Below, piece by piece: positions 1 through 17,118 of a DNA stretch of 64,000 bases. Under the pieces are notes generated by a model. It saw only the letters and a program-made list of their open reading frames with translations, searched no databases and had not been told where the DNA came from. The position numbers and the translations under genes are program-made. This DNA comes from an uncultured candidatus Brocadiaceae bacterium (lineage in GTDB: Bacteria; Planctomycetota; Brocadiia; SM23-32). Each line of letters begins with the position of its first letter. Positions within the stretch are counted from its first letter, which is position 1. The DNA lies in contig CAZFSS010000015.1 of assembly GCA_964521715.1 (NCBI GenBank), forward strand, positions 10,060-74,059, read 5' to 3'.

Positions 1-72
1 GTCGAGCATTACACGGCAGTGGCGAATGAACGCGCCCAGATCCGGGAAGCACTCCACAAGCCGGTAAGCTAA
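1..72 (+). CDS. 3' end of a truncated hypothetical ORF (VEHYTAVANERAQIREALHKPVS*)
   Basis: Open frame from base 1 to TAA at 70-72, same strand as the rest of the element. Confidence 0.4.
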   Translation, partial: VEHYTAVANERAQIREALHKPVS

Positions 73-108
73 GTTGAGATGGATTGCCCCCCTGACGAAA
101 CGTGGCGA

Positions 109-327
109 ACGGCGCCGGCCCGTGGGAAACGGGCTCGCTGCGGGGGACCTCGGCATGTCCCGCGCGCCGTGGGGTCGGCGGGGTGAATCCGCCCAACCCT
201 CGACTTCTGATCATGGGGCACGTCGCCGCTCTGGCCGAGGAGTGCCCCCCCGCGCTCGTAACGCGGCCGGCGACAGCGTCTATGGTACGCCGGGGTTGGG
301 CCGGGCCTCTTGTAGGTACGGCCCGAC
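109..327 (+). ncRNA. Candidate structured RNA (three-way junction plus five tandem hairpins); strand assumed
   Basis: Pairings 109-115/164-170 enclosing 118-123/129-134 and 140-148/157-163; then 177-181/189-193, 215-221/242-248, 250-254/262-266, 267-272/288-293, 295-303/319-327. Confidence 0.4.
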
Positions 328-350
328 TTCCGGCGTGGAGGAGATGAGTC

Positions 351-710
351 ATGTCGGTGACGGCGAGCGAGAACCTTGGAGGATGGCAAGTAGTCTACGA
401 GTGGCTGTCGGATGGTTCGGGGGATGCGTCGGTTGCGGATACCACACAACTGCGCGGCTACGTGATGCGCATGGTCACGGTGCCTGATGCGGTTGCAGTG
501 CCGGCGGATGATTACGATGTGGAGCTTCACGACGGCGACGGGGCGGATGTTCTGGCCGGCGCCGGAGCGAACCGTGACGAGGCAACGCCAGAGAGCGTGA
601 ATCCGAGTGCACCGCCCTATGTGAACGGCAGTTTGACGCTGGTGGTGAGCAACGCGGGCGACGCGAAGGCCGGAAGTGTGCGGGTCTATCTGCGCAAGTC
701 GAAGGACTGA
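351..710 (+). CDS. Hypothetical beta-rich protein, possibly phage virion/head-module associated
   Basis: SD GGAGGAG 337-343; 119 aa; motifs P-x-DDYDV-x-L-x-D and GAGANRD recall an uncharacterised phage family (recall, not searched). Confidence 0.65.
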   Translation: MSVTASENLGGWQVVYEWLSDGSGDASVADTTQLRGYVMRMVTVPDAVAVPADDYDVELHDGDGADVLAGAGANRDEATPESVNPSAPPYVNGSLTLVVSNAGDAKAGSVRVYLRKSKD

Positions 711-712
711 CC

Positions 713-1045
713 ATGAATGACGAGGGGCTGCGCGAAGAGGAGGAGCTGGATTTTGCGCGGGAGAGGGCGCTTGATCTGGTTGCCGAACTGGAGGTAGGTG
801 AGCTGCGTCGGGGTTGCCCGGGCACCATCAGTAAGATCATCGAAGCGGCACGCGGCGAAGGCGCGGCGGCAGAGCGGGACCGGGCGCGGCAATTGGAGCG
901 GGCATTGCGCGGGGATCCACGCACGGCGCTGGAAGCCATCCTTCGCGGGCTCTCCGTCGAAGAGGCGAAGGGGATGGCCTACGACCGGGTCCAAGCGCGG
1001 ATCAGGGAGCTTGAGCGCAGGCCGGATCAAGCTGAGGACAGCTGA
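713..1045 (+). CDS. Hypothetical charged, helical protein (110 aa)
   Basis: Starts 2 nt after upstream stop, AAGGA upstream; E/R/A-rich. Confidence 0.65.
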   Translation: MNDEGLREEEELDFARERALDLVAELEVGELRRGCPGTISKIIEAARGEGAAAERDRARQLERALRGDPRTALEAILRGLSVEEAKGMAYDRVQARIRELERRPDQAEDS

Positions 1046-1067
1046 AATTGGACAATGTGTCCAATTT
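1045..1067. promoter_or_regulatory. Perfect 10-bp inverted repeat, candidate operator
   Basis: AAATTGGACA-atg-TGTCCAATTT; AT-rich in a GC-rich background. Confidence 0.5.
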
Positions 1068-1214
1068 GGCGGAGGGTGTCAGGTGCGCGTGCCACAAGAA
1101 TCGCACCCCCAGAGGCGGGGGCAAGGTCGCATGGCGGGACTTTTGTGGCGTAGCGGGGCTCTGGTGACGTGCAGGCGCGATTCTGGCGGCAAGGAGGCAA
1201 GGAGTAGAAAGGGC

Positions 1215-1244
1215 TTGACAAGGACGGCGTGAAAGGAGTATGAT
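1215..1244 (+). promoter_or_regulatory. Sigma70-type promoter
   Basis: TTGACA-18 nt-TATGAT. Confidence 0.7.
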
Positions 1245-1286
1245 CGTGGGTGTGAAGAATCGGCCAGTCAGAACAAGCGGAACTGC

Positions 1287-1606
1287 AACGCCCCGTGTGT
1301 GTGTCGGGGCGTTTCCATGTCGGGCGTCAGGTTCCGGGGCAGGCGACTGTCCCGGCGGCTCAGCCGAGCCGTTCACAGCCTGACGCCCGAGTCTTGTACG
1401 AAAGGAGCAAGGTCAGAGGAGCGCGACGCCCGGGGCCGGCGGCTGGGCCCCACCAGCAATGGCACTGCCGGCCCCGTGGCTGCGCGCATGGAGAGGGAAG
1501 TTCAGGAGTTGGCAAGTTTCGGTGTGGAAGGCGGCCTATTCGCACAGAACAGGCCGGGAAGGGTAGAGCCTGGTGCCGGATCGGAGGAGAAAACCCGAAC
1601 CGGCCA
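1287..1606 (+). ncRNA. Candidate structured leader/sRNA downstream of the 1215-1244 promoter
   Basis: Stems 1287-1295/1305-1313, 1320-1331/1379-1390 (12 bp perfect) enclosing a GCGA-tetraloop hairpin and 1356-1361/1366-1371, long stem 1421-1487, hairpins 1533-1555 and 1571-1606. Confidence 0.45.
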
Positions 1607-1626
1607 CGGGAGGAAAGGAGACGGCG

Positions 1627-1932
1627 ATGGGTACGTTGACGAGGGAGGAGAGGTGTCTGGTGCCGGAGCTGCATGGTCCTGCCTTGGATGTGCTGTTTGA
1701 CGAGTGGCGCATCTACGAAGCGCGGGCGGACAGCGGCTTCCAGCGGCTCACGCGGCAAGTCGTCGTATGGCGCCGCGGGAAGGTCGTGGCGACGCAGGAG
1801 TTCATCGGCCCGGCGGCCATCCTGGTGCCAATCGAGGTTGTCGAGTATCAAACCGATCAGGATGCGGAAGACCAGTACCGGCGCTCCTCTGAACATGAAC
1901 ACCGGCGGGCGGTGGCAGCGCAAGCGGAATGA
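1627..1932 (+). CDS. Hypothetical protein (101 aa)
   Basis: Strong SD AGGAAAGGAG 1611-1620 before ATG 1627; in frame with the 1573..1932 ORF. Confidence 0.6.
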   Translation: MGTLTREERCLVPELHGPALDVLFDEWRIYEARADSGFQRLTRQVVVWRRGKVVATQEFIGPAAILVPIEVVEYQTDQDAEDQYRRSSEHEHRRAVAAQAE

Positions 1933-1984
1933 CGCGCCTTTTTCGCCGGCATGTGCTGAGAAGTAAAGACGGGCTCCGTCCGGG

Positions 1985-2013
1985 TTGACTTCCACCGGAT
2001 CAGGGGTTAGCAT
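1985..2013 (+). promoter_or_regulatory. Sigma70-type promoter upstream of xis-int
   Basis: TTGACT-17 nt-TAGCAT. Confidence 0.5.
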
Positions 2014-2270
2014 ACGAGCGGGAAGATGATGGCAGCGGAGGGGGCGAGAGTACCCCCCCCCCCTTTGGGTCCTTTCAAAGGGAAATGCAGCCGGCAGGTT
2101 GATGGGCTGTGCCCCGAAAACGTGTCACAGGTCGAGATTTTTGGTATCAAACAGTATCAAGAGGCGGGTCGTCTGAAGTAGCAAACGGAGGAAAGGGAAG
2201 GAGGGGAGCGGATGGCCGACGCAATGTCTGATCGGCCAGTGAGGTGTCTGGCATGGAGGGTGGAAGGAGA

Positions 2271-2555
2271 ATGGCAGGGCCGGTCCTTGCGACGGCTGGC
2301 GACATCATTACCGACCTGGCTGAACTGCCGGGGGAGGCGCTTGTTACTCAGGCGTACATAGCCCACGTCCTAGGCGTGACGGCAAGGACGGTGCGCAACA
2401 TGGTTGTGCGCAACGAGCTGCCGGGGCCGATCCAGATGGGCCGGCGGGTCTACTGGGTCGCGGGGGTCCTGCGAACTTACATGCGGGAAGCAGCCGAGCG
2501 GGAAGCAGAAAGGGCGGCGGCGGAGATCCGGCGATACAAGGCACTAAGGCCGTAG
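2271..2555 (+). CDS. AlpA/excisionase-like HTH protein
   Basis: SD AAGGAG before ATG 2271; IAHVLGVTARTVRNMV...LPGPIQMGRRVYW; directly upstream of the integrase. Confidence 0.8.
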   Translation: MAGPVLATAGDIITDLAELPGEALVTQAYIAHVLGVTARTVRNMVVRNELPGPIQMGRRVYWVAGVLRTYMREAAEREAERAAAEIRRYKALRP

Positions 2556-2564
2556 GAGGCTGGC

Positions 2565-3845
2565 GTGGCCTACGTCTTCCGTAGCAAGCGCAAGGATGGC
2601 GCGCCGTATGGGCCCTGGCGCTTCCAGTTCACCGACTGGACCGGGCGACGCCGGACAGCAACCGCCAGTGCCTCAAAGACGCGGACCGAGAAGCTCGCCC
2701 AGGAGGTCGACCTGGAGCACCGACTTATTCGTCAAGGGCTACGGCCTGCGCCGGATCCTCATGCAGAGCACAAGAGGCGTCCCTTCTCGGAGCTTGCAGC
2801 GGAGTACTGCGAGTGGGGCGAAAGTCAGGGCGGGCGTGGTGGCCGGCCCTGGAGTGCAACACATGCCCGGATGCGGCGGACCTATCTGGCATGGTGGCGT
2901 GATAGCTTGCACCTTACGAGCTTAGGCGACCTTGGAGGCTGTCTGCCGCGCGTCGAGAAGGTGTTGCGTGACTTGCAGGGCAAGGGCCTCTCCAACAAGA
3001 CCGTCAGGAACTACGCCGAGGCGCTGATGGCCTTCTGTGGCTGGGGCACCATGCGCGGGTATCTGACCGAGAATCCGCTGAGGGGCCTGCGGGGTTTCGA
3101 CACCACGCCGGGCCACAGGAGGCGGGCGCTCACGCCCGAGGAGATCGGGCGCCTGCTGGAAGTTGCCCCGCCGGATCGGCGCATACTGTATCAGGTCGCC
3201 CTTTGCTCGGGGCTGCGGGCGAATGAACTGAGGTCCCTCACGCCAGCGGACCTGGACACGCAGAAGGGCGGACTACTGCTTCGGCCCGAATGGACGAAGA
3301 ACCGAAAAGGCGGCTTCCAGCCGTTGCCTGTGTGGCTCTTGCGGGAGCTGGCCGACTACGCCACCAGGGACAGAGCGACGGCGGCCTACCGGGAAGCGTA
3401 CGAGCAGGCCCACGCGGTAACGGAGGCGCCGGCTGGGCGCTTGCTATTCGTCCCTTCCCATCCGGCGGGGAGCTTCGACGAAGACTGTGCGGCGGCGGGT
3501 ATCCCAAAGCGAAAGCTCGGGGGCAAAGTAGACTTTCACGCGCTGCGGACGACCTTCGTGACGCTGTTGGACGGGGCTGGCGGCAGCGTAAAGGAGACAC
3601 AGACCTTGGCGCGCCATGCTGATCCCGCCCTAACCTGGAACGTCTACGGGCGGGCCTCAGAGGAGCGCCTTGCGGAACTGGCGGCAGTCGTGGGGGAGGT
3701 TGCGCGGGGGCGCGTACGTTACCCTGAGAGCATACAGGGAGCAGTACGCCGGATGGCCGTAGGCGCGCAAGTCTATGAGGAGCAAGAGGATAGGATGGTC
3801 GGGGCGGCGGGATTTGAACCCGCGATCTCTAGCCCCCCATGCTAG
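2565..3845 (+). CDS. Tyrosine recombinase/integrase
   Basis: SGLRANEL (R), WTKNRK (K), DFHALR (HxxR), ARHADPALTWNVY (H, Y); SD AGGAGG; C-terminus overlaps the tRNA antisense. Confidence 0.95.
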   Translation: MAYVFRSKRKDGAPYGPWRFQFTDWTGRRRTATASASKTRTEKLAQEVDLEHRLIRQGLRPAPDPHAEHKRRPFSELAAEYCEWGESQGGRGGRPWSATHARMRRTYLAWWRDSLHLTSLGDLGGCLPRVEKVLRDLQGKGLSNKTVRNYAEALMAFCGWGTMRGYLTENPLRGLRGFDTTPGHRRRALTPEEIGRLLEVAPPDRRILYQVALCSGLRANELRSLTPADLDTQKGGLLLRPEWTKNRKGGFQPLPVWLLRELADYATRDRATAAYREAYEQAHAVTEAPAGRLLFVPSHPAGSFDEDCAAAGIPKRKLGGKVDFHALRTTFVTLLDGAGGSVKETQTLARHADPALTWNVYGRASEERLAELAAVVGEVARGRVRYPESIQGAVRRMAVGAQVYEEQEDRMVGAAGFEPAISSPPC

Positions 3846-3874
3846 CGCCCTAAGCCAGGCTGGGCCACGCCCCG
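3796..3874 (-). tRNA. tRNA-Pro(GGG)
   Basis: CGGGGCG/CGCCCCG acceptor, anticodon arm CTAGC-ATGGGGG-GCTAG, GGTTCAAATCC T-arm, encoded CCA. Confidence 0.95.
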
Positions 3875-3886
3875 ACCGTCGGCACT

Positions 3887-3914
3887 ATTATAGTCTGCCC
3901 CTCGGAGGAATCAA
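3887..3914 (-). promoter_or_regulatory. tRNA-Pro promoter
   Basis: TTGATT-16 nt-TATAAT on the minus strand, 12 nt before the tRNA. Confidence 0.65.
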
Positions 3915-3964
3915 GCTTCAGGCGAAAGCGCGCGCCTTCGCCGCCAAGCAAGGAAACGCGCGTC

Positions 3965-4384
3965 TCATTCCCCGATGATCTGAACGAAGAGCTCGCGCTC
4001 GCGCGCCCGCACGTCGAAGTCGAAGAACACGATCTGCTGCCACGTCCCCAGCATCAGCCGGCTGTCCCGGAAAGGGATCGTGACGGACGGGCCGATCAGG
4101 CTCGCGCGCACGTGGCTGTGGCCGTTCTTGTCGTGCCATCGCTCCTCGTGGTGGTAGTAATGATCGTGCGGGGCCAGCTTCTCGAAGACTTCCTCCATGT
4201 CTTTGACCAGTCCCGGCTCGAACTCCATGGTGGTCACCGCGCCGGTTGACCCGGGGACGAAGACGGTCACGACACCGTCCGAGACGGAGCTGTCGGCCAG
4301 GATGTCGGACACGTCTTTGGTGATGTCCACCACGTCCATCTCCGCTTCCGTGCTGAACACGAATGTCCTGGTCTCTACGGTCAT
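3965..4384 (-). CDS. yjbQ: YjbQ/UPF0047 family protein
   Basis: VFVPGSTGAVTTMEFEPGL, HEERWHDKNGHSHVRASLIGPS, LGTWQQI; start reassigned to ATG 4384. Confidence 0.9.
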   Translation of the reverse strand: MTVETRTFVFSTEAEMDVVDITKDVSDILADSSVSDGVVTVFVPGSTGAVTTMEFEPGLVKDMEEVFEKLAPHDHYYHHEERWHDKNGHSHVRASLIGPSVTIPFRDSRLMLGTWQQIVFFDFDVRARERELFVQIIGE

Positions 4385-4499
4385 CTTATCTGTGTGCCTT
4401 CCGCCTTTTGGGTTGTATTCGCCACTAACTGCGCTATGATACCGTGACGGCAGGCAAAATGCGAAGTCCAAAATCCCCTGGCGCAGGCGAGCAGGGACG

Positions 4500-5156
4500 A
4501 TGTTCGGCGACCGCACGGACTACGACGGCGCTCGCAAGGCCATGGTGGATCAGCAGTTGAGACGCCGGGGCATCAAGGACGAGGGGGTGCTGGCGGCGAT
4601 GGGGAACGTCCCTCGGGAGAGGTTCGTGCCGCCGGACAGCCGCTCGCGGGCCTACTGCGACGGCGCCATGGGGATCGGATTGGGGCAGACGATCTCGCAG
4701 CCCTACATGGTCGCGTTGATGACGGAGGCCCTTCATCTGACGGGCACTGAGCGGGTGCTGGAGGTAGGCTCGGGCTCCGGCTATCAGGCGGCCGTCCTGG
4801 CGGAGCTTGCCGCGCACGTCTATACGGTGGAGCGGATCGCGGAACTGAGCGAGGGGGCGCGCAAGGTGCTCTGCGAGGAGCTGGGCTACGCGAACGTCTC
4901 GTTCAGGGTGGGGGACGGCACGCTGGGCTGGCCCGAGGAGGCGCCCTTCGATCGGATCATGGTGACGGCCGGGGCGCCGCACCGGCCCGCCCGGCTGGTT
5001 GACCAGCTTGCGCCGCTGGGGGAGGCGGTCGTGCCCGTCGGCGGGCAACACTGGCAGATGCTGACTCACTATCGCAAGGAGCCGGACGGGACGATCCGGG
5101 AGAGGGAGGTCTGCGAGTGCGTCTTCGTGAAGCTGATCGGTGAGGACGCCTGGTAG
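4500..5156 (+). CDS. pcm: Protein-L-isoaspartate O-methyltransferase
   Basis: GQTISQPYMVA, VLEVGSGSGYQAAVL, APFDRIMVTAG. Confidence 0.95.
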   Translation: MFGDRTDYDGARKAMVDQQLRRRGIKDEGVLAAMGNVPRERFVPPDSRSRAYCDGAMGIGLGQTISQPYMVALMTEALHLTGTERVLEVGSGSGYQAAVLAELAAHVYTVERIAELSEGARKVLCEELGYANVSFRVGDGTLGWPEEAPFDRIMVTAGAPHRPARLVDQLAPLGEAVVPVGGQHWQMLTHYRKEPDGTIREREVCECVFVKLIGEDAW

Positions 5157-5174
5157 CCCGGACCACGCGGCCCG

Positions 5175-6356
5175 TCACGCACTTCTCTGCGCCAGCAGTT
5201 CGCGGTAGAGTGCTTCGGTCCGGTCCACCATGGTCTCGATGCGGAACTGGTCGGCGAACCGGCGGCGCCCTTCCCGCGCCATGCGCCGCGCGTCCTCGGG
5301 GTTCCGGATCGTCCACACGACCGCTTCCGCCAGCTCGTCCACGGACTGCGGCGGCACCAGCCGGCCCGTCACACCGTCCAGTATGACCTCCGGCGCTCCG
5401 TCCAGATCGTAGGTGACCACCGGCCGCTCGCACAGCAGGGCCTGGACCAGCACGCGCGCCAGCCCCTCGCGCAGGGAGGCGTGGACCAGGACGTCCATGG
5501 CCCCGATTATCGCGGGGATGTCCTGCGGCGGAATGAGCCCGGCGAAAACCACCCGGTCGGCGATTCCGAGCTCGGCGGCCTCGGCGGCCAGCCGGTCCCT
5601 CAGGACGCCGTCGCCGACAAACAGGAACCTGGCCTGCGGGCATCGCGCGACGATCTTTGGGGCGGCCCTGAGAACGAACTCGTGGCCCTTCAGCTCGAAC
5701 AGGCGGGCGATCTTGCCGATGACCACGTCGTCCGCCCCGAACCCGAACCGGCGCCGGACGGATTGCCTCGTGCGGTCGGCGTCGCGATAGGCGTCCACGT
5801 CCATCCCGCTGTAGATGACGGTGAAGCCACCGCGAGGCCGGATGCCGGCCTGCCTGGCCTGCTCGACCATGGCTTGCGCCACACACACGATGCGGTCGGT
5901 GACGCGGGCGGCGGCTCGCTCCGCCAGGATGAAGGCGGCGTTGACGTGAGCCGGGGCATAGGGGTGGAAGGGCAGCCCCTCGACTGTGTGGATGACGGCG
6001 GGCACGCGCAGCAGATTTGCGGCGAAGCGGCCGAGGATGCCGGCCTTGGAGCTGTGCGTCTGCACGATGGCCGGTCGAAAACGCCGCAGCACTTGCACGA
6101 GCCTGAGCAAAGCTGCAGCGTCGCGGCAGGGGCGGACGGCCCGGCGCAACTCCGGGACCACGACGCAGGGGATGCCCCGGCGGCGCACTTCGGTGAGCAG
6201 CTCCCCCTCGGGGCCTATCGGCGGACCGGTCACGAGCAGCACTTCCCACTCGGGCCGCCGGTGCAGGATGTCGCAGGTGTGGAGGGTGTTCTCCTGGGCC
6301 CCGCCCAGGATCATTCTGGTGATGACGTGGGCGACACGGACGGGGGCAGTTCCCAT
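5175..6356 (-). CDS. Glycosyltransferase family 4 (GT-B)
   Basis: GGAQE, HSSKAG, EGLARVLVQAL, DGAPEVI. Confidence 0.9.
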   Translation of the reverse strand: MGTAPVRVAHVITRMILGGAQENTLHTCDILHRRPEWEVLLVTGPPIGPEGELLTEVRRRGIPCVVVPELRRAVRPCRDAAALLRLVQVLRRFRPAIVQTHSSKAGILGRFAANLLRVPAVIHTVEGLPFHPYAPAHVNAAFILAERAAARVTDRIVCVAQAMVEQARQAGIRPRGGFTVIYSGMDVDAYRDADRTRQSVRRRFGFGADDVVIGKIARLFELKGHEFVLRAAPKIVARCPQARFLFVGDGVLRDRLAAEAAELGIADRVVFAGLIPPQDIPAIIGAMDVLVHASLREGLARVLVQALLCERPVVTYDLDGAPEVILDGVTGRLVPPQSVDELAEAVVWTIRNPEDARRMAREGRRRFADQFRIETMVDRTEALYRELLAQRSA

Positions 6357-6398
6357 GCCATATCCCGGCGAGGATCACAGGCGCTGAGGTCGCAGCTT

Positions 6399-7646
6399 TC
6401 AGCCGGTGAACCTGCGAAAGGCCAGTGAGACGTTGTGGCCGCCGAACCCGAAGGAGTTGTTCAGGACGACGTTGATCGGCCGCTCCTGGGCCTGGTTCGG
6501 CACGAAGTTCAGGCCACAGCACTCGGGATCGGGGTCGTCCAGGTTTATGGTCGGAGGGCACACGTTGTCGCGCATGGCCCAGAGGCAGACGGCGCTCTCC
6601 AGGGCGCCCGATGCGCCGAGCAGGTGGCCGAAAACGCTCTTGGAGGAGCTGATCGCGAGTTTCCGGGCGTGTTCGCCGAAGACGGCGCAGATGGCCCTGG
6701 CCTCGACGTCGTCGCCGGCCCGCGTGCCGGTGCCGTGGGCGTTGATGTAGTCCACGTCCTCGGGGGCCAGGCCGGCGTCCAGGAGCCCGTTCTTCATGGC
6801 GAGGGCCGCGCCTCCACCTTTGGGGTCGGGCAGGGTGATGTGATGCGCGTCGCTGCTGGCGCCATAGCCGACCAGCTCGGCCAGGATCTCGGCGCCGCGC
6901 TTGCGGGCGCGCCCCAGGTCCTCCAGCACCAGGATGGCGGCCCCTTCGGCCATGACGAAGCCGTCCCGGTTCAGGTCGAAGGGCCGGCTGGCGGCTTCGG
7001 GGTCGTCGTTCCGGGTCGAGAGCGCCTTGGCCTGCTGAAAGCCGCTCAGCCCCATGGGCGTGACGGCGGCCTCGGCGCCGCCGCAGATGACGGCGTCGGC
7101 CATGCCGGCCCGGATGCATTGCAGCGCTTCGCCCATCGCGTGGGAGGCCGAAGCGCAGGCGCTGGAGACGGACATGCTGGGGCCGTGGAGGCCGTACTTC
7201 ATGGCCACCTGCCCGGCAGCGGCGTTGGTCATGAGCTTGGGGATCATCAGCGGGCTGGTGCGTCCAGGGCCGCTTTCGAGCAGGCGCTGATGCTGAACCT
7301 CGATCTCGTGGAGGCCGCCGATGCCGGTTCCGACAAACGCGCCCCACCGGCTGCGGTCCTCTGCGTCCAGATCCAGGCCGGCGTCCGCGATCGCCTGATC
7401 GGCCGCGACCATGGCGAACTGCACGAACTGGTCCAGCCGGTTCAGCTCCCGCTTGGACCAGTATTGGAGGGGATCGAAGCCCTTGACCTCGCCGGCGATG
7501 TGCACGTCGTAGCCGGAGGTGTCGAACGACTCGATGCGCCGGATCCCGCTTCGCCCATCGCGAACAGCGGGCCAGGCCACCTCCTCGCTACAGCCGACCG
7601 GCGACACAACCCCTACGCCCGTGACGACGACACGTCTGCGGCTCAT
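6399..7646 (-). CDS. fabF: 3-oxoacyl-ACP synthase II
   Basis: SACAS, INAHGTGT, GHLLGASG, NNSFGFGG. Confidence 0.97.
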   Translation of the reverse strand: MSRRRVVVTGVGVVSPVGCSEEVAWPAVRDGRSGIRRIESFDTSGYDVHIAGEVKGFDPLQYWSKRELNRLDQFVQFAMVAADQAIADAGLDLDAEDRSRWGAFVGTGIGGLHEIEVQHQRLLESGPGRTSPLMIPKLMTNAAAGQVAMKYGLHGPSMSVSSACASASHAMGEALQCIRAGMADAVICGGAEAAVTPMGLSGFQQAKALSTRNDDPEAASRPFDLNRDGFVMAEGAAILVLEDLGRARKRGAEILAELVGYGASSDAHHITLPDPKGGGAALAMKNGLLDAGLAPEDVDYINAHGTGTRAGDDVEARAICAVFGEHARKLAISSSKSVFGHLLGASGALESAVCLWAMRDNVCPPTINLDDPDPECCGLNFVPNQAQERPINVVLNNSFGFGGHNVSLAFRRFTG

Positions 7647-7891
7647 TGTCCCTGCTTCTGGCTCTCTTTGATATAGTGGACGGCCTGGCCAATGGTCTCG
7701 ATCTTCTGCGCTTCCTCGTCGCTGATCGTCAGGTCGAACTCCTCCTCCAGATCGATGACCAGTTCGGCCATGTCCAGCGAGTCGGACTGGAGATCGTTGA
7801 CAAAGTGGGTGTCCGCCGTCAGTTGGTCCGGCTCGACGCCCATCCGTTCTGCCACCAGGTTGACGACCCTGTCCATTATCTCATCAGGCAC
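7643..7891 (-). CDS. acpP: Acyl carrier protein
   Basis: DLQSDSLDMAELV. Confidence 0.97.
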   Translation of the reverse strand: MPDEIMDRVVNLVAERMGVEPDQLTADTHFVNDLQSDSLDMAELVIDLEEEFDLTISDEEAQKIETIGQAVHYIKESQKQGQ

Positions 7892-7986
7892 TTCATTCCC
7901 TCCGCGTGTATGGACTGGTATGTCTCTTGTCAGTTGCCTGCCTTGAATCAGGTCAGCTGTGCAGCCGCCCCGTTGCCCATGCGGGA

Positions 7987-8016
7987 ATTGTAGTCACGGC
8001 CTCGTCGGCGTTGCAA
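7987..8016 (-). promoter_or_regulatory. Internal promoter for acpP-fabF
   Basis: TTGCAA-18 nt-TACAAT on the minus strand. Confidence 0.5.
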
Positions 8017-8038
8017 GCGCAGCAGGGCGAGAACGGCC

Positions 8039-8782
8039 CTACATGGCCATGCCGCCGTCGACGCGGATGACTTCCCCCGTGACGTAGCCCGAGTCGGGCG
8101 AGGCGAGGAACGCGACGACCGCCGCCACGTCCTCGGGCTGACCGAACCGGCCGCTCGGGATGGCGGCAAGGTTGGCCTCGCGGGCCTCCTGGCTGAGCTG
8201 GGCGGTCATCGGCGTTTCGATGAAGCCCGGAGCGACGGCGTTGACCGTCACGTTGCGCCTGGCCAGCTCGCGCGCGGCCGTCTTCGTCAGGCCTATCACG
8301 CCCGCCTTGCTGGCCGAGTAATTGGCCTGACCGACGTTGCCCCTGATGCCCACGACGCTGGCGATGTTGATGATGCGGCCGCTGCGCTGCTTCGACATGA
8401 TCCGGGCCACGGCCCTGATGCCGTTGAAGACGCCCTTGAGGTTGATCGCCAGCACCTGGTCCCACTCCTCGTCGTCCATGCGGATGAGCAGGTTGTCGCG
8501 CGTGATGCCGGCGTTGTTGACCATTATGTCGATGCTGCCGAACGCCTCGGCCGCCCTGGCGACGGCGTCTTTCATCTGATCCGACCGGGACACGTCAGCC
8601 TGGAGGGCCAGGAATTCGACGCCCTGCTCGCGAACGAGCGACCCCGCCTCCTCCAGGGCTTCGGGGATCACGTCGATGCCGACGACGTTGGCGCCCTGCT
8701 CGGCGAGCTTCAGGCAGATGGCCCTGCCGATGCCGCGAGCGGCGCCGGTGACTACGGCCGTTTTCCCCTCCAGCGGCTTCAT
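8039..8782 (-). CDS. fabG: 3-oxoacyl-ACP reductase
   Basis: TGAARGIG, NNAGITRD, YSASKAG; start MKPLEGK at 8782. Confidence 0.96.
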   Translation of the reverse strand: MKPLEGKTAVVTGAARGIGRAICLKLAEQGANVVGIDVIPEALEEAGSLVREQGVEFLALQADVSRSDQMKDAVARAAEAFGSIDIMVNNAGITRDNLLIRMDDEEWDQVLAINLKGVFNGIRAVARIMSKQRSGRIINIASVVGIRGNVGQANYSASKAGVIGLTKTAARELARRNVTVNAVAPGFIETPMTAQLSQEAREANLAAIPSGRFGQPEDVAAVVAFLASPDSGYVTGEVIRVDGGMAM

Positions 8783-9729
8783 GTGCCTTTCCTTTCTGCA
8801 TGTGTCCGGACGTCCTGCGCGCGGTTGATCGTCGAGCACGTCTTCGACGGATCTATGCGCTTGAGAAGCCCCTGCAGAACGCGGCCGGGGCCCACTTCGC
8901 AGTACTGCTCGACCCCTTGCGCGATGAACCACCGCATGCAGTCGACCCATCGGACGGGGCTGACGATCTGGTCCACCAGCAGGCGGCGTATCTCGTCTGG
9001 GTCCGCCGCAGGCCGGCCGGTCACGTTGGCCACGACGGGGCACCGGGGCGCACGGATGGGCGCCTCGGACAGCTCGGCCGCCATCCGCTCGGCTGCGGGC
9101 CGCATCAGCTCCGTGTGGAATGCGCCCGCCACGTTGAGCCGGATGGCCCGCCGAGCTCCCATCGCGGCGCAGAGGTCGGCCGCCATGCGCGCGGGCTCCT
9201 CCTCTCCGCTCACGACGACCTGGCCCGGGCAGTTGTAGTTGGCTGGCCAGACGCCTCCGCCGCTCTGCTCCCGGGCGGACTGGCAGGCCTGCTCCACCTG
9301 ACCGTCTTCGAGTCCGATGATGGAGTACATGGTGCCGGGGTTCGCTTCGCAGGCCTCCTGCATGTAGAGGCCGCGCTTGCGCACGAGCCGAAGGGCGGAG
9401 GGGAGGTCCAGAGCGCCGGCCGCCACGAGGGCCGAATACTCGCCGAGGCTGAGGCCCGCCGTGCCCGCCGGTGCGAATGGGGAGCCGGCCTCCTCCTCCA
9501 TGGCCCGCAACGCGGCTAGGCTTACCGTGAGGATGCCGGGCTGGGCCACGTCGCTGCGCGAGAGCTCCTCCAGCGGGCCCTCGAAGCAGAGCCTGGCGAG
9601 CTCCATGCCAAGCACCTCGTTGGCCTGGCGGAAGACGGCCCCGGCGGCCGGGTAGTGTTGGGCCAGGTCCCGGCCCATGCCCACCTCCTGGGCCCCCTGG
9701 CCGGGGAAGAGAAGCGCTGTGCCGCTCAT
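8779..9729 (-). CDS. fabD: Malonyl-CoA:ACP transacylase
   Basis: FPGQGAQ, GLSLGEY, AGAFH, EVGPG. Confidence 0.96.
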   Translation of the reverse strand: MSGTALLFPGQGAQEVGMGRDLAQHYPAAGAVFRQANEVLGMELARLCFEGPLEELSRSDVAQPGILTVSLAALRAMEEEAGSPFAPAGTAGLSLGEYSALVAAGALDLPSALRLVRKRGLYMQEACEANPGTMYSIIGLEDGQVEQACQSAREQSGGGVWPANYNCPGQVVVSGEEEPARMAADLCAAMGARRAIRLNVAGAFHTELMRPAAERMAAELSEAPIRAPRCPVVANVTGRPAADPDEIRRLLVDQIVSPVRWVDCMRWFIAQGVEQYCEVGPGRVLQGLLKRIDPSKTCSTINRAQDVRTHAERKGT

Positions 9730-9765
9730 TGTCGCGTGCCCGTGCCGGGGAAGCGAAGCCCCGCC

Positions 9766-10761
9766 TCAGTACCGGATCAACGTCGAGGCCCAGGTCAGGC
9801 CGCCGCCGAAGGCCAGCAACAGGACCAGGTCCCCGCGTTCGAGCTGCCCGTTCTGGACCGCTTCCGTCATGGCCAGCGGGATCGAGGCTGCCGAGGTGTT
9901 GCCCACCCGCTCGATGTTCATGTACGCCTTCTCCAGGTCCAGCCCGGCCCTCTCGAAGGCGCTCTTGATGATCCGGACGTTGCTCTGGTGGGGGATGACC
10001 ATCTTGATCTCGTCCAGCGACACGCCGGCCAGCTCGGGCACCCTTTGCAGGAGCTCGGTCATCTTGTTCACTGCGAGCTTGAAGACTTCCCGCCCCTGAA
10101 GCTTCATGTAGTGCCCTCGGGCGTCGACGGTCTCGTGCGAGGCCGGCTCGCGGGAGCCGCCGGCGGGCAGGATCAGTATCTCCGGGCACGACCCGTCGGA
10201 GCCCATCTCGCTGTAGATCACCTCGCCGCCGTTCTGCGCGGGCCGGAGGATGGCTGCGCCGGCGGCGTCCCCGAACAAGATGCAGGAGCGCCTGTCCGCG
10301 TAGTCGGTGAATCGGGAGAGCGCTTCCGCGCCGATGACCATGACGTGGCGCGCCACGCCCGAGGCCACGACCCCGGCGCCCCAGGAAAGGGCGAACACGA
10401 ATCCGCTGCACGCGGCCTCCAGGTCGAAGGCCATGGCATCCCGCGCGCCCAGGGCTGCCTGCACCAGACACGCCGTCGCCGGGAAGAAGTGGTCCGGCGT
10501 GGACGTGGCCACCACGATGGCGTCGAGCTCGTCCGCGCTCATTGACGCCGCCTCGAGCGCGCCCGTTGCGGCCGCAAGGGCCATGTCGCTGGTCGCCTCG
10601 CCGTCTGCCAGCAGATGGCGTTCCTTGATGCCGGTCCGGGGGTAGATCCACTCGTCGGACGTGTCGACCATCTGCTCCAGCTCGGAGTTGGTAAGGACGC
10701 GCTCCGGCAGGTAGCTGCCCAGGCCGGCGATCTCTACGGGCAAGTGCTGGCGGGTATGCAT
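9766..10761 (-). CDS. fabH: 3-oxoacyl-ACP synthase III
   Basis: EAACSGF, PHQSN, GNTSAASIP; start reassigned to MHTRQHL. Confidence 0.96.
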   Translation of the reverse strand: MHTRQHLPVEIAGLGSYLPERVLTNSELEQMVDTSDEWIYPRTGIKERHLLADGEATSDMALAAATGALEAASMSADELDAIVVATSTPDHFFPATACLVQAALGARDAMAFDLEAACSGFVFALSWGAGVVASGVARHVMVIGAEALSRFTDYADRRSCILFGDAAGAAILRPAQNGGEVIYSEMGSDGSCPEILILPAGGSREPASHETVDARGHYMKLQGREVFKLAVNKMTELLQRVPELAGVSLDEIKMVIPHQSNVRIIKSAFERAGLDLEKAYMNIERVGNTSAASIPLAMTEAVQNGQLERGDLVLLLAFGGGLTWASTLIRY

Positions 10762-10814
10762 GTCAGTGTCTCGCGGGGCTCCGTTGCCGATGGAAACGGA
10801 CAGGGGGCAACCGG

Positions 10815-11876
10815 TCAGGCGGACAGGTCCCGGGGCGTGGCGCTTTTCTGCACGGCCGCCTCGATGTGTTCGTTGACGCTTAGCTCCACGAACGCCCGGG
10901 CCTCCCGGATGGCGTTCTGGATGGCCCGCCTGTCCGAAGTGCCGTGAGTTATGATGATGACGCCGTTGACGCCGAGCAACGGGGCGCCGCCGTACTCGCT
11001 GAAGTCTGCGCACTGCCGCAGATGCATGAAGAGGTCCTTGCAGAGGACGAAGCCCAACTTGTAGCGCAGGCTGCCCTCCACCTGCTCGCGCATCCAGGCC
11101 AGGAGCCGCATCACGAGGCTTTCGCTCGACTTCAGGAGCACGTTGCCGACGAAGCCGTCGCAGACGAGTATGTCACATGCATGCCGGAACAGCGCCTGGG
11201 GCTCCATGTTGCCGACGAAGTTGAGGTCCGCCCGCGAGAGCAGCTCGAACGCCTGCTTGGCGAGGTCATTGCCCTTGGCGGCTTCCTCGCCCACGTTCAG
11301 CAGGCCGACCCGCGGGTTCTTGATGCGCAGCACCTCCGTGGCGAACACGGTGGCCATGATGCCGTACTGGAGCAGGTGCCTGGGCTTGCAGTCGACGTTG
11401 GCCCCGACGTCGATGGCGACGACGGGGTAGTTGATGACCCGCATGGCGGCGGCTATCCCGGGCCGAAGGACGCCCTTGAGCCGCCCCAGCTTCAGGCTGC
11501 TGGCGGCGGCGACCGCCCCGGTGTTGCCCGCGCTCACGAAGGCGTCCGCGCGGCCGTCGGCCAGCATCTCCAGGGCGACCACGATGGAGCTCTTCTTCTT
11601 CTCCCGGAGGGCCTGGACGGGGGACTCGTGCATGCCGATGCGCTCGGGCGCGGCCACCAGCATGACGTTATCGGGCCTGCCGCCCAGGTCGCTGATCTCC
11701 TGCTCCATCCGGTCGGGCTCGCCGCACAGGATCACCTCCGTGTCGCTGTAGAGCCAGGCGGCGTTGACGGCTCCGGCCAGCCTCTCCCCGAGGGGAGCGT
11801 CCCCGCCGGTGGCGTCGAGAGCCACCCGGGCGGCGTATGGACGTGCATGGACGTCGGCCGATGGAAGGTTTGCCAT
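10815..11876 (-). CDS. plsX: Phosphate acyltransferase
   Basis: LDATGGDAP, SAGNTGA, DVGANVD, YGGAPLLG; start uncertain. Confidence 0.95.
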   Translation of the reverse strand: MANLPSADVHARPYAARVALDATGGDAPLGERLAGAVNAAWLYSDTEVILCGEPDRMEQEISDLGGRPDNVMLVAAPERIGMHESPVQALREKKKSSIVVALEMLADGRADAFVSAGNTGAVAAASSLKLGRLKGVLRPGIAAAMRVINYPVVAIDVGANVDCKPRHLLQYGIMATVFATEVLRIKNPRVGLLNVGEEAAKGNDLAKQAFELLSRADLNFVGNMEPQALFRHACDILVCDGFVGNVLLKSSESLVMRLLAWMREQVEGSLRYKLGFVLCKDLFMHLRQCADFSEYGGAPLLGVNGVIIITHGTSDRRAIQNAIREARAFVELSVNEHIEAAVQKSATPRDLSA

Positions 11877-11943
11877 GGTCCGTGGTCGCCGGCAAGCAGT
11901 CAGGCCCCGCACCTCGCGCTCAGTCCCAGTTGCACTCGGTGCC

Positions 11944-12168
11944 TTATCTCTCCACTTCCACGAGGGATCGGCCGCGATAGTAGCCGCAGTTCGGACAGAC
12001 TGCGTGAGGGGCCTTGGGTTGGCTGCAATTGCTGCAGAAGAACCTCCTGGACCGGCTCCCCTCGGCCCTCACGCGCTGGCTCTTGGGGATGTTCGGCATG
12101 GTGAGGGCCAGGTGAGACCGATTCTTGCGTTTTCGCTGTTTGCTGTGTCTTCTTTTGGGTACCGCCAC
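11944..12168 (-). CDS. rpmF: 50S ribosomal protein L32 (Zn-binding, with insertion)
   Basis: GTG start, AVPKRRHSK...CSNC...PHAVCPNCGYYRG. Confidence 0.93.
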   Translation of the reverse strand: MAVPKRRHSKQRKRKNRSHLALTMPNIPKSQRVRAEGSRSRRFFCSNCSQPKAPHAVCPNCGYYRGRSLVEVER

Positions 12169-12341
12169 TTTCGTGTCCTCTCGGAGTAATCGTTGGAGCG
12201 ACATCGCGGAAGGGACGCGAGGAAAGCCGCTCCAAGCAGCGCTTCGGTTTCGGAACGTTGCCACGAAGGCGATCGGGCACGCCCAGCTGCCAGGAGAGCC
12301 GTTCGGGGAACAGCGCCCCCCGGTTCCTTACAAGACCTGCG

Positions 12342-12371
12342 ATTCTAACTTCGGGCGGGGCTTTCTGTCAA
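12342..12371 (-). promoter_or_regulatory. Promoter of the rpmF-plsX-fab operon
   Basis: TTGACA-18 nt-TAGAAT on the minus strand. Confidence 0.7.
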
Positions 12372-12407
12372 TGGGACGCCGGCGCAGAGGCGCCGCGGGG
12401 CGCTGTC

Positions 12408-12436
12408 TTGACGGCCTGTTCCACGCCCGGTAGAAT
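12408..12436 (+). promoter_or_regulatory. Promoter of the protease operon
   Basis: TTGACG-17 nt-TAGAAT. Confidence 0.7.
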
Positions 12437-12497
12437 CGGGATGGCAATGTCGCGCGCCCCTGTGGTGCCCGTCTACAACCGAGAAGCGAGGAGACAG

Positions 12498-16606: not shown

Positions 16607-16620
16607 GCGGCGGGCCTCCG

Positions 16621-17118
16621 TCAGCCGGCCCCCAGGCCTCTCAGCTCATCGCTGAGCAACCTGATGTGGCTCATCTCCTCGCGGATGATCGTCTCCACGT
16701 CGGACCTGCCGAGGCGCTCCGGAACGGCATCCCGGATGCCCAGGTAGTACACGACGGAATCCTTTTCGAGCTGGATCGCCGCCTGGAGCACTTCGCGGCT
16801 GTCCGCCATCTCCGCCACGGCCCGGGGCTGCATGCGGTAGACGTTGAAGACCTGCGTGTCGGCGGCCGCCCGCAGATACAGCCCGACTTCGTCATTGGGG
16901 TCAAACAGAATCTCGGGGGCGGCTTCGCCGGAGAGCTTCCCCTGCATCTTCGCGAACGTACGCTCGTGATCCGCTTCCATCTGGGCCAGCTTGAGGAGCA
17001 AGTCCCTCAGGCGGCCGTCCCGGCTCTTCTTGGCGGCTTCCCGGTAGAACCGCTGACCGTTCCGCTCGATCTGGACCGCCATCTCGAACACTTCGTAAGC
17101 GCTGAAACTCGCAGCCAT
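16621..17118 (-). CDS. Ferritin-like/rubrerythrin family protein
   Basis: AVQIERNG..FY, EADH, LEKDSVVYY, EEMSH. Confidence 0.88.
   Translation of the reverse strand: MAASFSAYEVFEMAVQIERNGQRFYREAAKKSRDGRLRDLLLKLAQMEADHERTFAKMQGKLSGEAAPEILFDPNDEVGLYLRAAADTQVFNVYRMQPRAVAEMADSREVLQAAIQLEKDSVVYYLGIRDAVPERLGRSDVETIIREEMSHIRLLSDELRGLGAG

What the first reader, a model, noticed from the sequence alone, without database searches (positions are those of the whole stretch)
1215..1620. Consensus promoter driving a ~370-nt highly structured leader: candidate RNA immunity/attenuation module
Seen: TTGACA-18-TATGAT, then a 9-bp hairpin with a (TG)n loop, a three-way junction closed by 12 perfect bp with a GNRA (GCGA) loop, a long stem 1421-1487 and two more hairpins before the SD at 1611. 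Knowledge: P4 CI RNA and P1 c4 RNA are processed from such leaders and control downstream lytic genes. Inference: an analogous, unrelated RNA controlling the 1627 ORF and possibly xis-int.
Basis: partly seen in the sequence, partly recalled or inferred. Interest (0 to 1): 0.66.

Follow-up and report, generated by a model that had tools for sequence, protein, structure and literature searches.

The report
Structured RNA leader in orphan prophage
A near-perfect bacterial promoter near the integrase end of an uncharacterised prophage-like element is followed by 376 non-coding bases that fold far better than chance, most likely the RNA leader of a small stand-alone gene; nothing like it was found in any collection searched, so the proposed RNA 'immunity switch' role is untested.

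Summary
TTGACA-18-TATGAT sits at 1215-1244 and is one of five 11/12 matches in the 64 kb. The other strong matches precede tRNA-Pro, rpmF and trpB. The 376 nt up to the ATG at 1627 are non-coding and fold at z = -4.8. The signal comes mainly from a 75-nt three-way junction (1320-1390, z = -8.1) and a 67-nt GC hairpin (1421-1487, z = -3.05). Three smaller hairpins add to it. The + strand is favoured: GC-adjusted rank 3/670 against 156/670, and 5 G-U pairs against 1.

Rfam finds nothing, including the P1 c4 / P4 CI family. The Shine-Dalgarno sequence is predicted open. No loop pairs with a target better than background. A hairpin plus T5 at 1914-1943 probably ends the transcript before xis-int.

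No homologue of the leader or of ORF101 turned up in any protein, viral, genome or metagenome search, and no RNA-seq run was available. Covariation and transcription therefore remain untested.

Best reading (confidence about 0.4): the structured 5' leader of an autonomous, moron-like cassette of promoter, leader, ORF101 and terminator. It probably acts on RNA stability, processing or attenuation. Interest is modest.

The parts
1045..1067 (+). Perfect 10-bp inverted repeat AAATTGGACA-ATG-TGTCCAATTT. It begins at the last base of the ORF110 stop codon (1043-1045). It is AT-rich in a 65% GC genome. It is either a terminator-like hairpin for the upstream operon or an operator.
   Evidence: a single copy; 0.04 expected by chance at <=3 mismatches; z = -2.5.
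1215..1244 (+). Sigma-70-type promoter TTGACA-18-TATGAT. The transcription start is inferred at about 1250-1252.
   Evidence: 11/12; comparable sites in the window precede tRNA-Pro, rpmF, trpB and other host genes at sensible distances.
1287..1313 (+). Hairpin H1: a 9-bp GC-rich stem, loop UGUGUGUGU, followed by UUUCC. It lies about 37-63 nt after the inferred start. It is a candidate attenuator, or the 3' end of a short RNA of about 65 nt.
   Evidence: pair probability 0.91-0.97 in every folding context; z = -2.5. The U-tract is too weak for the terminator scan.
1320..1390 (+). Three-way junction. P1 is 14 bp, P2 is 9 bp with a GCGA tetraloop and continues the 5' strand of P1 without a break (23 stacked bp), P3 is 6 bp with an AGCC loop, and J3/1 is UUCAC.
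   Evidence: MFE -54.7, z = -8.1; P 0.95-0.99; also folds as ssDNA, z = -7.3 on + and -6.0 on -.
1392..1412 (+). Small hairpin with 2 G-U pairs and a GGA-containing loop (ACGAAAGGAGC). It is followed by the unpaired linker UCAGAGGAGCGC (1413-1424).
   Evidence: The 12-mer linker recurs at 3657-3668, and its complement lies at 1881-1892.
1421..1487 (+). Long GC-rich hairpin, 5+3+11+5 bp with internal loops.
   Evidence: MFE -51.1, z = -3.05; core P 0.94-0.99.
1488..1574 (+). Purine-rich, mostly unpaired segment dense in GGA and SD-like motifs. Its 1512-1545 part can pair with 1250-1286 only if the transcript starts at about 1250.
   Evidence: (duplex -31.6 kcal/mol, z = -2.8 against genomic windows, not significant).
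1575..1604 (+). Hairpin with GGAGGAG in its loop, just upstream of the SD.
   Evidence: P 0.97-1.0; z = -3.0.
1608..1932 (+). SD GGGAGGAAAGGAG (1608-1620) and ORF101 (ATG 1627 to TGA 1930-1932). ORF101 shows a coding signature but has no homologues.
   Evidence: GC3 0.80-0.88, GC2 0.38-0.47; called as a gene on the contigs shown; no true homologue; SD unpaired.
1914..1943 (+). Hairpin overlapping the stop codon, followed by T5 (1939-1943). It is the likely intrinsic terminator of the ORF101 unit.
   Evidence: hairpin; only 3 T5 runs on the + strand of the 64 kb. The folding z-score is not significant.
1985..2013 (+). Second, weaker promoter-like site TTGACT-17-TAGCAT, upstream of xis.
   Evidence: 9/12.
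2253..3845 (+). Excisionase-like HTH gene (2253/2271-2555) and tyrosine integrase (2565-3845). The 3' end of the integrase gene overlaps the 3' end of tRNA-Pro(GGG) (3796-3874, - strand), which marks the right end of the integrated element.

Best explanation
The region is the 5' leader of a self-contained transcription unit carried by an integrated, phage-derived element. The unit has a host-type sigma-70 promoter (1215-1244, start inferred near 1251), a 376-nt untranslated RNA, ORF101 (1627-1932), and a hairpin plus U5 terminator (1914-1943). This layout matches a prophage 'moron' placed between the structural genes and the xis-int module.

As the RNA is made it would fold into a promoter-proximal hairpin (H1), a very stable three-way junction and a 24-bp GC hairpin. 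The purine-rich 3' part and the Shine-Dalgarno sequence would stay open.

Inferred mechanism:
- The leader does not gate translation by hiding the ribosome-binding site.
- It sets how much full-length message accumulates.
- H1 acts as a leaky attenuator or pause.
- The two helices of at least 23 bp act as stabilising or processing elements (RNase III-type double-strand targets). They also keep a long untranslated RNA compact, and so a poor substrate for Rho.

Shown here: the promoter match, the absence of coding signal, the excess structure and its strand bias, the open SD in the models, and the terminator-like end. Inferred: that the region is transcribed, and every step of the mechanism.
For: Promoter:
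- It matches 11/12.
- The eleven sites with at least 10/12 in the window include ones placed before host genes: about 5 nt before tRNA-Pro, and 32-166 nt before rpmF, trpB and others. This consensus therefore appears to be used by the host.
- No promoter-like site of at least 9/12 lies on the - strand between 1000 and 2400.

Non-coding status:
- No codon-position GC periodicity in 1261-1560, against a clear signal in ORF101.
- No Pfam or PHROG hit for either overlapping ORF and no tblastn hit in phages for ORF 1299-1700.
- No gene call in the gap.

Structure:
- z = -4.8 for the leader, -8.1 for the junction, -3.05 for the long hairpin and -3.0 for 1570-1610.
- The same local helices appear in four different folding contexts.
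- Flanking coding regions and the next gap have z between -0.7 and +1.6 on either strand.

Strand:
- GC-adjusted rank 3/670 on + against 156/670 on -.
- 5 G-U pairs on + against 1 on -.

Other points:
- SD positions 1611-1621 have unpaired probability 0.9-1.0.
- The cassette ends with hairpin 1914-1938 plus T5, one of three T5 runs on the + strand of 64 kb.
- A host gene (htrA-like, 12408-12800) has the same layout of consensus promoter, roughly 360-nt extremely structured leader (z = -7.1) and gene. Long structured leaders therefore occur in this organism outside the element.
Against: - There is no transcription evidence. No RNA run holds the region.
- There is no homologue, so no covariation. 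The copies compared with the window (L001-L004) are 100% identical to it.
- The junction and the long hairpin fold nearly as well as DNA and on the - strand. The RNA assignment therefore rests on the promoter and a modest strand bias.
- H1 has a weak U-tract. Canonical terminators are not enriched in this genome (5 found against 8 expected), so its attenuator role is a guess.
- The terminator-like hairpin after ORF101 has no significant folding z-score.
- RNase III, Rho and stability roles are inferred from general knowledge (lambda N leader, lambda sib, T7 early RNAs), not from anything specific in this sequence.
Confidence: 0.4

Rival explanations
1. The RNA itself is the product. In one version the promoter makes a short RNA of about 65 nt ending at H1, plus a read-through form. 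This would resemble IsrK of the Gifsy-1 prophage, where the short form acts on the long one. In the other version a stable species of about 240-300 nt containing the junction and long hairpin is processed out of the leader. That would be the reader's P4 CI / P1 c4-like idea. Either RNA would act on element genes, whether ORF101, xis-int or lytic functions.
For: - H1 lies 37-63 nt after the inferred start and is followed by UUU.
- The 5' 37 nt can pair with 1512-1545 of the read-through form (26 bp, P 0.67-0.99) when the fold starts at 1250.
- The 12-nt linker 1413-1424 is complementary to 1881-1892 inside ORF101. The same word recurs in int at 3657-3668. Triple 12-mers are expected 0.09 times per shuffled element.
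- All genes seen in the element are on one strand and no HTH repressor was detected, so an unconventional immunity system is not excluded.
- The IsrK and P4 mechanisms are described in PMC4825925.
Against: - There is no Rfam match at E <= 10.
- The 5'-3' pairing is z = -2.8 against genomic windows, so not significant for a local search. It disappears when upstream sequence is included.
- No leader segment pairs with any translation-initiation region beyond background. The best case is int at -27.4 kcal/mol, which is about 1.7 sd from the genomic mean.
- The junction loops are only 4 nt.
- The leader sits downstream of the structural genes, not in front of the replication genes as in P4.
Confidence: 0.2
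2. The palindromes act as DNA rather than RNA. They could be a protein-binding or recombination site, a packaging (cos/pac-like) site of a satellite-type element, or a small foldback (MITE-like) insertion that landed between the promoter and ORF101.
For: - The junction and long hairpin are almost strand-symmetric and fold significantly with DNA parameters on both strands (z = -7.3 and -6.0; -2.8 and -2.8).
- The 14-bp outer arms look like terminal inverted repeats.
- The 10 kb of the element seen so far has a rep-like gene, a tape-measure-like gene and a protease/scaffold-like gene, but no recognisable terminase or major capsid gene. It could therefore be a satellite that needs a helper-recognised site.
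- The host htrA leader also carries a 21-bp near-perfect inverted repeat around a structured core.
Against: - No second copy of any part of the leader exists in the 64 kb or in any fetched locus, by BLAST, nhmmer or the covariance model.
- The likely replication origin is elsewhere: three ACCTGTAAGGGAA iterons lie inside the rep-like gene.
- The site is 2.4 kb from the att core, too far for integrase arm sites.
- The mismatches in the helices are G-U on the + strand, 5 against 1.
- The position directly behind a strong promoter fits RNA.
Confidence: 0.12
3. The 3' half of the leader is a binding platform for a GGA-recognising RNA-binding protein (CsrA/RsmA type), or a ribosome standby region. 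The protein would control ORF101 translation, or the RNA would titrate the protein.
For: - There are 13 GGA motifs in 1393-1626 and 11 in 1488-1626. That density falls in the top 0.27% of 234-nt windows on both strands of the 64 kb.
- About nine motifs are predicted unpaired. Two sit in hairpin loops (1404, 1586) and two overlap the SD.
Against: - The segment is simply purine-rich (G 0.42, A 0.27). From those frequencies I estimate about 6.6 GGA by composition alone, against 11 observed.
- No csrA gene was looked for or found in the window.
- No homologues exist in which to test motif conservation.
Confidence: 0.08
4. The structure has no current function. It would be a relic of decayed sequence or of template-switch or foldback mutation in a defective, GC-rich element, sitting in a long spacer that happens to follow a promoter.
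For: - The leader, ORF101 and most of the element have no relatives anywhere. Purifying selection therefore cannot be shown.
- The element looks incomplete or mosaic.
- GC-rich sequence forms long helices easily.
Against: - z = -8.1 for the junction and -4.8 for the leader against dinucleotide shuffles. Flanking sequence of the same composition is at z of about 0 or above.
- Nested, perfectly stacked helices with a GNRA cap are not what decay produces.
- The cassette has intact promoter, SD, ORF and terminator-like signals.
Confidence: 0.15

Closest known systems
P1 c4 / P4 CI antisense RNAs (Rfam C4, RF01695)
   Same: Both are phage or satellite non-coding RNA lying downstream of a promoter and within the untranslated leader of an operon. 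Both are structured, and both belong to an element that integrates with a tyrosine integrase.
   Different: - There is no covariance-model match.
- The C4/CI RNAs are about 70-77 nt, with loops that pair with repeated targets in the same transcript. Here the loops are 4 nt and no significant target was found.
- The position is at the int-proximal end, upstream of an ORFan, not in front of replication or antirepressor genes.
IsrK of the Gifsy-1 prophage (PMC4825925)
   Same: In IsrK a prophage promoter makes a short RNA that ends at a leaky terminator, plus a read-through mRNA whose long structured 5' part controls a downstream ORF. H1 followed by read-through could give the same two isoforms here.
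   Different: - IsrK is an Rfam family that did not match.
- The IsrK long form is translationally silent through an alternative structure. Here the SD is predicted open.
- No evidence for two isoforms exists.
Lambda N-leader and sib RNase III sites (retroregulation of int)
   Same: Long double-stranded hairpins in untranslated phage RNA next to regulatory or integration genes set message stability and translation. The 23-bp P1-P2 stack and the 24-bp hairpin are long enough to be RNase III substrates.
   Different: - There is no sequence relation.
- sib lies downstream of int and acts from the 3' side, whereas this region is a 5' leader of a different gene.
- RNase III cleavage is an inference, not something tested.
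Prophage morons (promoter-gene-terminator cassettes)
   Same: It is an autonomous unit with its own strong promoter and terminator-like end. It is inserted between the structural genes and the integration module, and it carries an ORFan.
   Different: - Typical morons have short leaders. A 376-nt highly structured leader is unusual.
- The GC content of the cassette (0.62-0.66) does not differ from that of the element.
HK022 put RNAs (cis-acting antiterminator RNAs)
   Same: Stable stem-loops are transcribed immediately downstream of a phage promoter and act on the transcribing polymerase.
   Different: - put is a roughly 70-nt two-hairpin element.
- No model was available for comparison.
- The architecture here (hairpin, three-way junction, long hairpin) is different.

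Membership tests
C4 antisense RNA family (P1 c4, P4 CI; Rfam RF01695) | Match to the family covariance model (sequence plus structure). | tested here: not met
   cmscan of 1-8000 at E <= 1 and of 1040-1660 at E <= 10 gave no C4 hit. Only spurious eukaryotic lncRNA matches appeared, at E of 3-4.
C4 antisense RNA family (P1 c4, P4 CI; Rfam RF01695) | Exposed loops or segments complementary to repeated target sites in the same transcript (a2/b2 at the icd RBS in P1; seqA/seqC in P4). | tested here: not met
   Duplex scans of seven unpaired leader segments against 13 translation-initiation regions found nothing beyond the genomic background. The junction loops are only 4 nt.
C4 antisense RNA family (P1 c4, P4 CI; Rfam RF01695) | Processing of a stable species of about 70 nt from the leader (by RNase P, and PNPase in P4). 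| not testable with these tools
   No RNA run holds the region.
Any curated Rfam family (riboswitches, ribozymes, phage ncRNAs, ROOL/GOLLD, group I/II introns, tRNA-like) | Covariance-model score at or near the gathering threshold. | tested here: not met
   The only hit at gathering score in the 64 kb is tRNA-Pro at 3799-3874. Nothing was found in 1040-1660 at E <= 10 apart from noise.
Intrinsic-terminator attenuator / sRNA 3' end (H1) | GC-rich hairpin followed immediately by a U-tract. | tested here: inconclusive
   The stem is 9 bp and about -17 kcal/mol, but the tail is UUUCCAUGU, and the scan did not call it. Canonical terminators are not enriched in this genome, so the E. coli rule may not apply.
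Translational riboregulator that sequesters the RBS | SD or start codon paired in the dominant structure. | tested here: not met
   Positions 1611-1621 have unpaired probability 0.9-1.0.
Prophage moron | Own promoter upstream and own terminator downstream of a gene inserted between conserved phage modules. | tested here: met
   The promoter matches 11/12. Hairpin 1914-1938 is followed by T5, one of 3 such runs on the + strand. The position lies between head-module genes (ORF119 homologues sit in head modules) and xis-int. The terminator is inferred, not proven.
Retron ncRNA (msr-msd) | Reverse transcriptase gene immediately downstream of the structured RNA. | tested here: not met
   The downstream ORF is 101 aa with no Pfam hit. 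No RT domain was found in any gene of the element that was seen.
Repetitive palindromic element / MITE | Multiple copies in the genome. | tested here: inconclusive
   No second copy exists in the 64-kb window or in any fetched locus. The rest of the host genome was not available.

The most novel reading that the evidence does not exclude
The roughly 240-300-nt core (H1, three-way junction, long hairpin) is a new class of element-encoded structured RNA. It would be made from a strong constitutive promoter in the lysogen and would govern the element's maintenance-or-excision decision. In an element that shows no protein repressor and has all genes on one strand, this would be a functional counterpart of P4 CI or P1 c4 with an unrelated fold.
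Probability: 0.1. Interest if true: 0.6.

Novelty: new member of a known kind. Interest (0 to 1): 0.3.

Why it matters
If the leader is functional, it would be an RNA-based control element from a lineage with essentially no characterised phage regulation. The host is an uncultured, GC-rich sediment bacterium, and the closest integrase relatives that carry a name come from Hydrogenedentes, Lentisphaerae, Latescibacteria and Planctomycetota.

Together with the htrA-like host leader, it suggests that very long, highly structured 5' leaders behind consensus promoters may be a habit of this organism. That idea can be tested with one metatranscriptome.

As it stands, this is a single orphan sequence with no covariation or expression support. 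Its value is as a candidate, not as a result.

Tried and rejected
Homologue hunt (all negative):
- ORF101 against 5.8 billion protein clusters and 1.8 billion representatives returned only itself, plus three weak hits (E 1e-5 to 1e-4) to repeated stretches of large, unrelated proteins.
- The leader was absent from loci around the closest integrases (58-48% identity; L005-L008, L262-L267), where only xis aligned. It was also absent from loci around ORF119 homologues, which turned out to be head-module genes of ordinary tailed phages.
- Element proteins of 334, 627 and 305 aa found no relatives in IMG/VR.
- Exact and gapped DNA patterns found nothing in viral contigs.
- The gapped inverted-repeat pattern used on genome and metagenome collections was too permissive. 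It returned more than 119 and more than 120 stretches. None of the 239 loci stored from the two scans resembled the leader by nhmmer or blastn.
- A covariance model of the junction found only itself.
- blastn and tblastn against phage genomes found nothing.

Transcription:
- No RNA runs were listed. The two DNA runs listed hold related host sequence but not the element.

Ideas rejected:
- Protein-coding. There is no periodicity and no hit.
- RBS sequestration.
- A leader peptide. The only ATG-initiated ORF at the 5' end, at 1240, starts inside the -10 box.
- A significant 5'-3' closing helix.
- Loop-target pairing.
- A replication origin. The iterons are in the rep-like gene.
- A retron. No RT was found.
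- CRISPR-like repeats.
- An analogous structured element upstream of xis-int in integrase relatives.

Also uninformative: the AlphaFold model of ORF101 was too poor to use (pLDDT 55).

Full report
CONTEXT

Window 1-3874 is the right end of an integrated element. All genes are on the + strand:
- ORF119 (351-710) and ORF110 (713-1045).
- A 580-nt gap (1046-1626) that contains the finding.
- ORF101 (1627-1932), then a 320-nt gap.
- An excisionase-like HTH gene (2253/2271-2555; HTH_17 and PHROG excisionase/MerR-like hits).
- A tyrosine integrase (2565-3845), whose 3' end overlaps the 3' end of tRNA-Pro(GGG) (3796-3874, - strand).

A metagenome contig (L009) extends the element 6.1 kb to the left. 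It carries a rep-like gene holding three ACCTGTAAGGGAA iterons, a tape-measure-like 627-aa gene, and a protease/scaffold-like 334-aa gene (PHROG 3244, 2.7e-18). ORF119 homologues sit in the head modules of ordinary tailed phages. The element is therefore phage-derived, and may be defective or satellite-like.

In a related host the same tRNA-Pro / YjbQ / PCMT locus carries a different element, with a 58%-identical integrase and a D5-type primase.

THE OBSERVATION

TTGACA-18-TATGAT lies at 1215-1244 and matches 11 of 12 positions. Only five 11/12 sites and eleven sites of at least 10/12 occur on both strands of the 64 kb. One of them ends about 5 nt before tRNA-Pro. Others lie 32-166 nt before rpmF, trpB and other host genes. 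This consensus therefore looks like the working promoter of the host. No comparable site lies on the - strand between 1000 and 2400.

The 381 nt from 1250 to 1630 fold at -191.4 kcal/mol, z = -4.8. Dissecting the region gives:
- Three-way junction 1320-1390: z = -8.1. P1 is 14 bp, P2 is 9 bp with a GCGA loop, and P3 is 6 bp.
- Long hairpin 1421-1487: z = -3.05.
- Hairpin 1575-1604: z = -3.0.
- The (UG)n-loop hairpin 1287-1313: z = -2.5.
- Segments 1250-1320 and 1490-1626, taken as wholes, are not exceptional.

These local helices recur whatever flanks are included. The long-range pairing of 1250-1286 with 1512-1545 appears only if the RNA starts at about 1250, and its duplex energy is not significant against genomic windows. 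Flanking coding regions and the next gap have z between -0.7 and +1.6 on either strand.

IS IT CODING?

No. Codon-position GC shows a clear pattern in ORF101 (GC3 0.80-0.88, GC2 0.38-0.47) and none in 1261-1560. ORFs 1299-1700 and 1295-1639 have no Pfam or PHROG hit, and ORF 1299-1700 has no tblastn hit in 50,697 phage genomes. The pipelines called no gene there on the contigs that span the gap.

WHICH STRAND, AND RNA OR DNA?

Relative to all 380-nt windows of the 64 kb, adjusted for GC, the leader ranks 3rd of 670 on the + strand and 156th on the - strand. The robust helices contain 5 G-U pairs on + against 1 on -. Together with the promoter, this favours a + strand RNA. The junction and the long hairpin also fold significantly as single-stranded DNA on both strands, so a DNA-level role is not excluded.

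WHAT IT DOES NOT LOOK LIKE

- Rfam 15 gives nothing in the region at E <= 10. That covers the C4 family (P1 c4, P4 CI), riboswitches, ribozymes and the large phage-associated RNAs.
- The Shine-Dalgarno sequence (1608-1620) is predicted unpaired, so the leader is not an RBS-sequestering switch.
- There is no plausible leader peptide.
- Unpaired leader segments do not pair with any of 13 translation-initiation regions of the element beyond the genomic background.
- No reverse transcriptase, CRISPR-like repeats or second copy of any part of the leader was found.

EXTENT OF THE UNIT

Seven nucleotides after the ORF101 stop, a GC hairpin (1914-1938) is followed by T5 (1939-1943). Only three T5 runs exist on the + strand of the whole window. 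A second, weaker promoter-like site (1985-2013) precedes xis. The simplest reading is an autonomous cassette of promoter, leader, ORF101 and terminator, like a prophage moron. A leader that controls xis-int is less likely.

COMPARATIVE AND EXPRESSION EVIDENCE

None could be obtained.
- ORF101 is an ORFan in 5.8 billion clusters and in an exhaustive HMMER scan of 1.8 billion representatives.
- The copies compared with the window (L001-L004) are 100% identical to it, and further contigs from the same sample series and a second series carry the same ORFs.
- The leader is absent from every integrase-related or ORF119-related locus.
- It is absent from IMG/VR.
- It is absent from the chance matches returned by the genome and metagenome pattern scans.
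- No RNA-seq run holds it.

Because the flanking protein gene is just as orphan, the lack of conservation is uninformative rather than negative.

MECHANISM (INFERRED)

The promoter fires with host RNA polymerase. H1, about 40 nt downstream, may pause or partly terminate transcription. The junction (23 continuously stacked bp on its 5' strand) and the 24-bp hairpin then form. They are long enough to be RNase III substrates. They also make the long untranslated, G-rich RNA compact and a poor Rho substrate. The purine-rich 3' part stays open for ribosome loading. That part holds 13 GGA motifs in 234 nt, a density in the top 0.27% of windows, and about nine of them are unpaired.

An IsrK-like two-isoform scheme (PMC4825925) or a processed stable RNA remains possible. 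So does a CsrA-type interaction with the GGA-rich part, but most of that enrichment is explained by composition.

A HOST PARALLEL

At 12408-12436 a TTGACG-17-TAGAAT site is followed by a roughly 360-nt stretch with z = -7.1. A 21-bp near-perfect inverted repeat closes it, and then comes an HtrA/DegP-like lipoprotein gene. It has no sequence similarity to the finding but the same layout. Long structured leaders are therefore not peculiar to the element.

VERDICT

The best explanation is a cis-acting structured 5' leader of a moron-like ORF101 cassette (confidence about 0.4). The feature belongs to no known family and is an orphan member of a known kind. Interest is modest (0.3) until transcription or covariation data exist.

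Noticed in passing
window 12408-12800 (+): A host promoter-like site, TTGACG-17-TAGAAT, is followed by a roughly 360-nt extremely structured stretch (RNA z = -7.1; top-ranked window on both strands). It is closed by a 21-bp near-perfect inverted repeat, CTTAGAGCCTCTAACAGAATG ... CATTCTGTTAGAGGCTCTTAG. An ATG at 12798 then opens a lipoprotein signal peptide plus an HtrA/DegP-like protease. The stretch is either a long structured leader or a MITE-like insertion in a 5' UTR. A divergent TTGACA-18-TAGAAT site (12371, - strand) precedes rpmF.
   Followed up: partly
window 1413-1424 (+), 1881-1892 (complement), 3657-3668 (+): The 12-mer TCAGAGGAGCGC occurs three times: in the unpaired leader linker, as its complement near the 3' end of ORF101, and in the 3' part of int. 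Words occurring three times at k=12 are expected 0.09 times per shuffled 10-kb element, and 4 were observed. It could be a protein-binding site or a long-range RNA pairing. It remains unexplained.
   Followed up: partly
L009 789-801, 838-850, 862-874: There are three direct copies of ACCTGTAAGGGAA inside the 305-aa rep-like gene (weak PHROG 270 'replication initiation protein' hit). They are iteron-like, which suggests an origin embedded in the initiator gene, as in lambda O.
   Followed up: partly
window 1933-2252: The gap before xis holds a promoter-like TTGACT-17-TAGCAT (1985-2013), a C11 homopolymer (2053-2063) that can pair with an upstream G-run, a CCCUUUG/CAAAGGG hairpin, and a second of the three + strand T5 runs (2138). 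Overall it is not significantly structured (z = +0.9). The homopolymer could be slippage-prone.
   Followed up: partly
window 1045-1067: A perfect AT-rich 10-bp inverted repeat (AAATTGGACA ATG TGTCCAATTT) begins at the last base of the ORF110 stop codon. It is a single copy in the window and in L009. It is either an operator or a terminator.
   Followed up: partly
window 261-360: The 279-nt gap before ORF119 also contains a structured spot (80-nt windows reach z = -4.3; the whole gap is z = -2.6 on +) just upstream of the ORF119 start.
   Followed up: no
window 3796-3874 and loci L005/L006: tRNA-Pro(GGG) is an integration hot spot. A related host, with the same YjbQ, PCMT and glycosyltransferase neighbours, carries a different element there. 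That element has a 58%-identical integrase, a homologous xis, an HTH_3 regulator and a D5/DUF3854 primase-helicase.
   Followed up: partly
window 1290-1372 (ends of Logan contigs L001, L003, L009, L011): Independent metagenome assemblies break inside the leader hairpins. L009 ends at 1309 and L003 starts at 1290. L011 ends at 1372 and L001 starts at 1344. This is probably a de Bruijn-graph effect of the palindromes or of the (TG)n tract, rather than biological variation.
   Followed up: partly
window 4001-24000 and whole window: Canonical hairpin-plus-U-tract terminators are not enriched in the host (5 found against 8.0 expected). T5 runs are very rare, 3 on + and 5 on - in 64 kb. This suggests mostly non-canonical or Rho-dependent termination in this organism.
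   Followed up: no
L009 1-7462 plus window 1-3874: The roughly 10 kb of the element seen so far has rep-like, tape-measure-like, protease/scaffold-like and head-accessory (ORF119) genes. No terminase, portal or major capsid gene is recognisable. It may be a defective prophage or a satellite-like element. A weak match to the tRNA 3' end (GTCGGGGCGGC) at L009 about 325-337 might mark the left boundary.
   Followed up: partly
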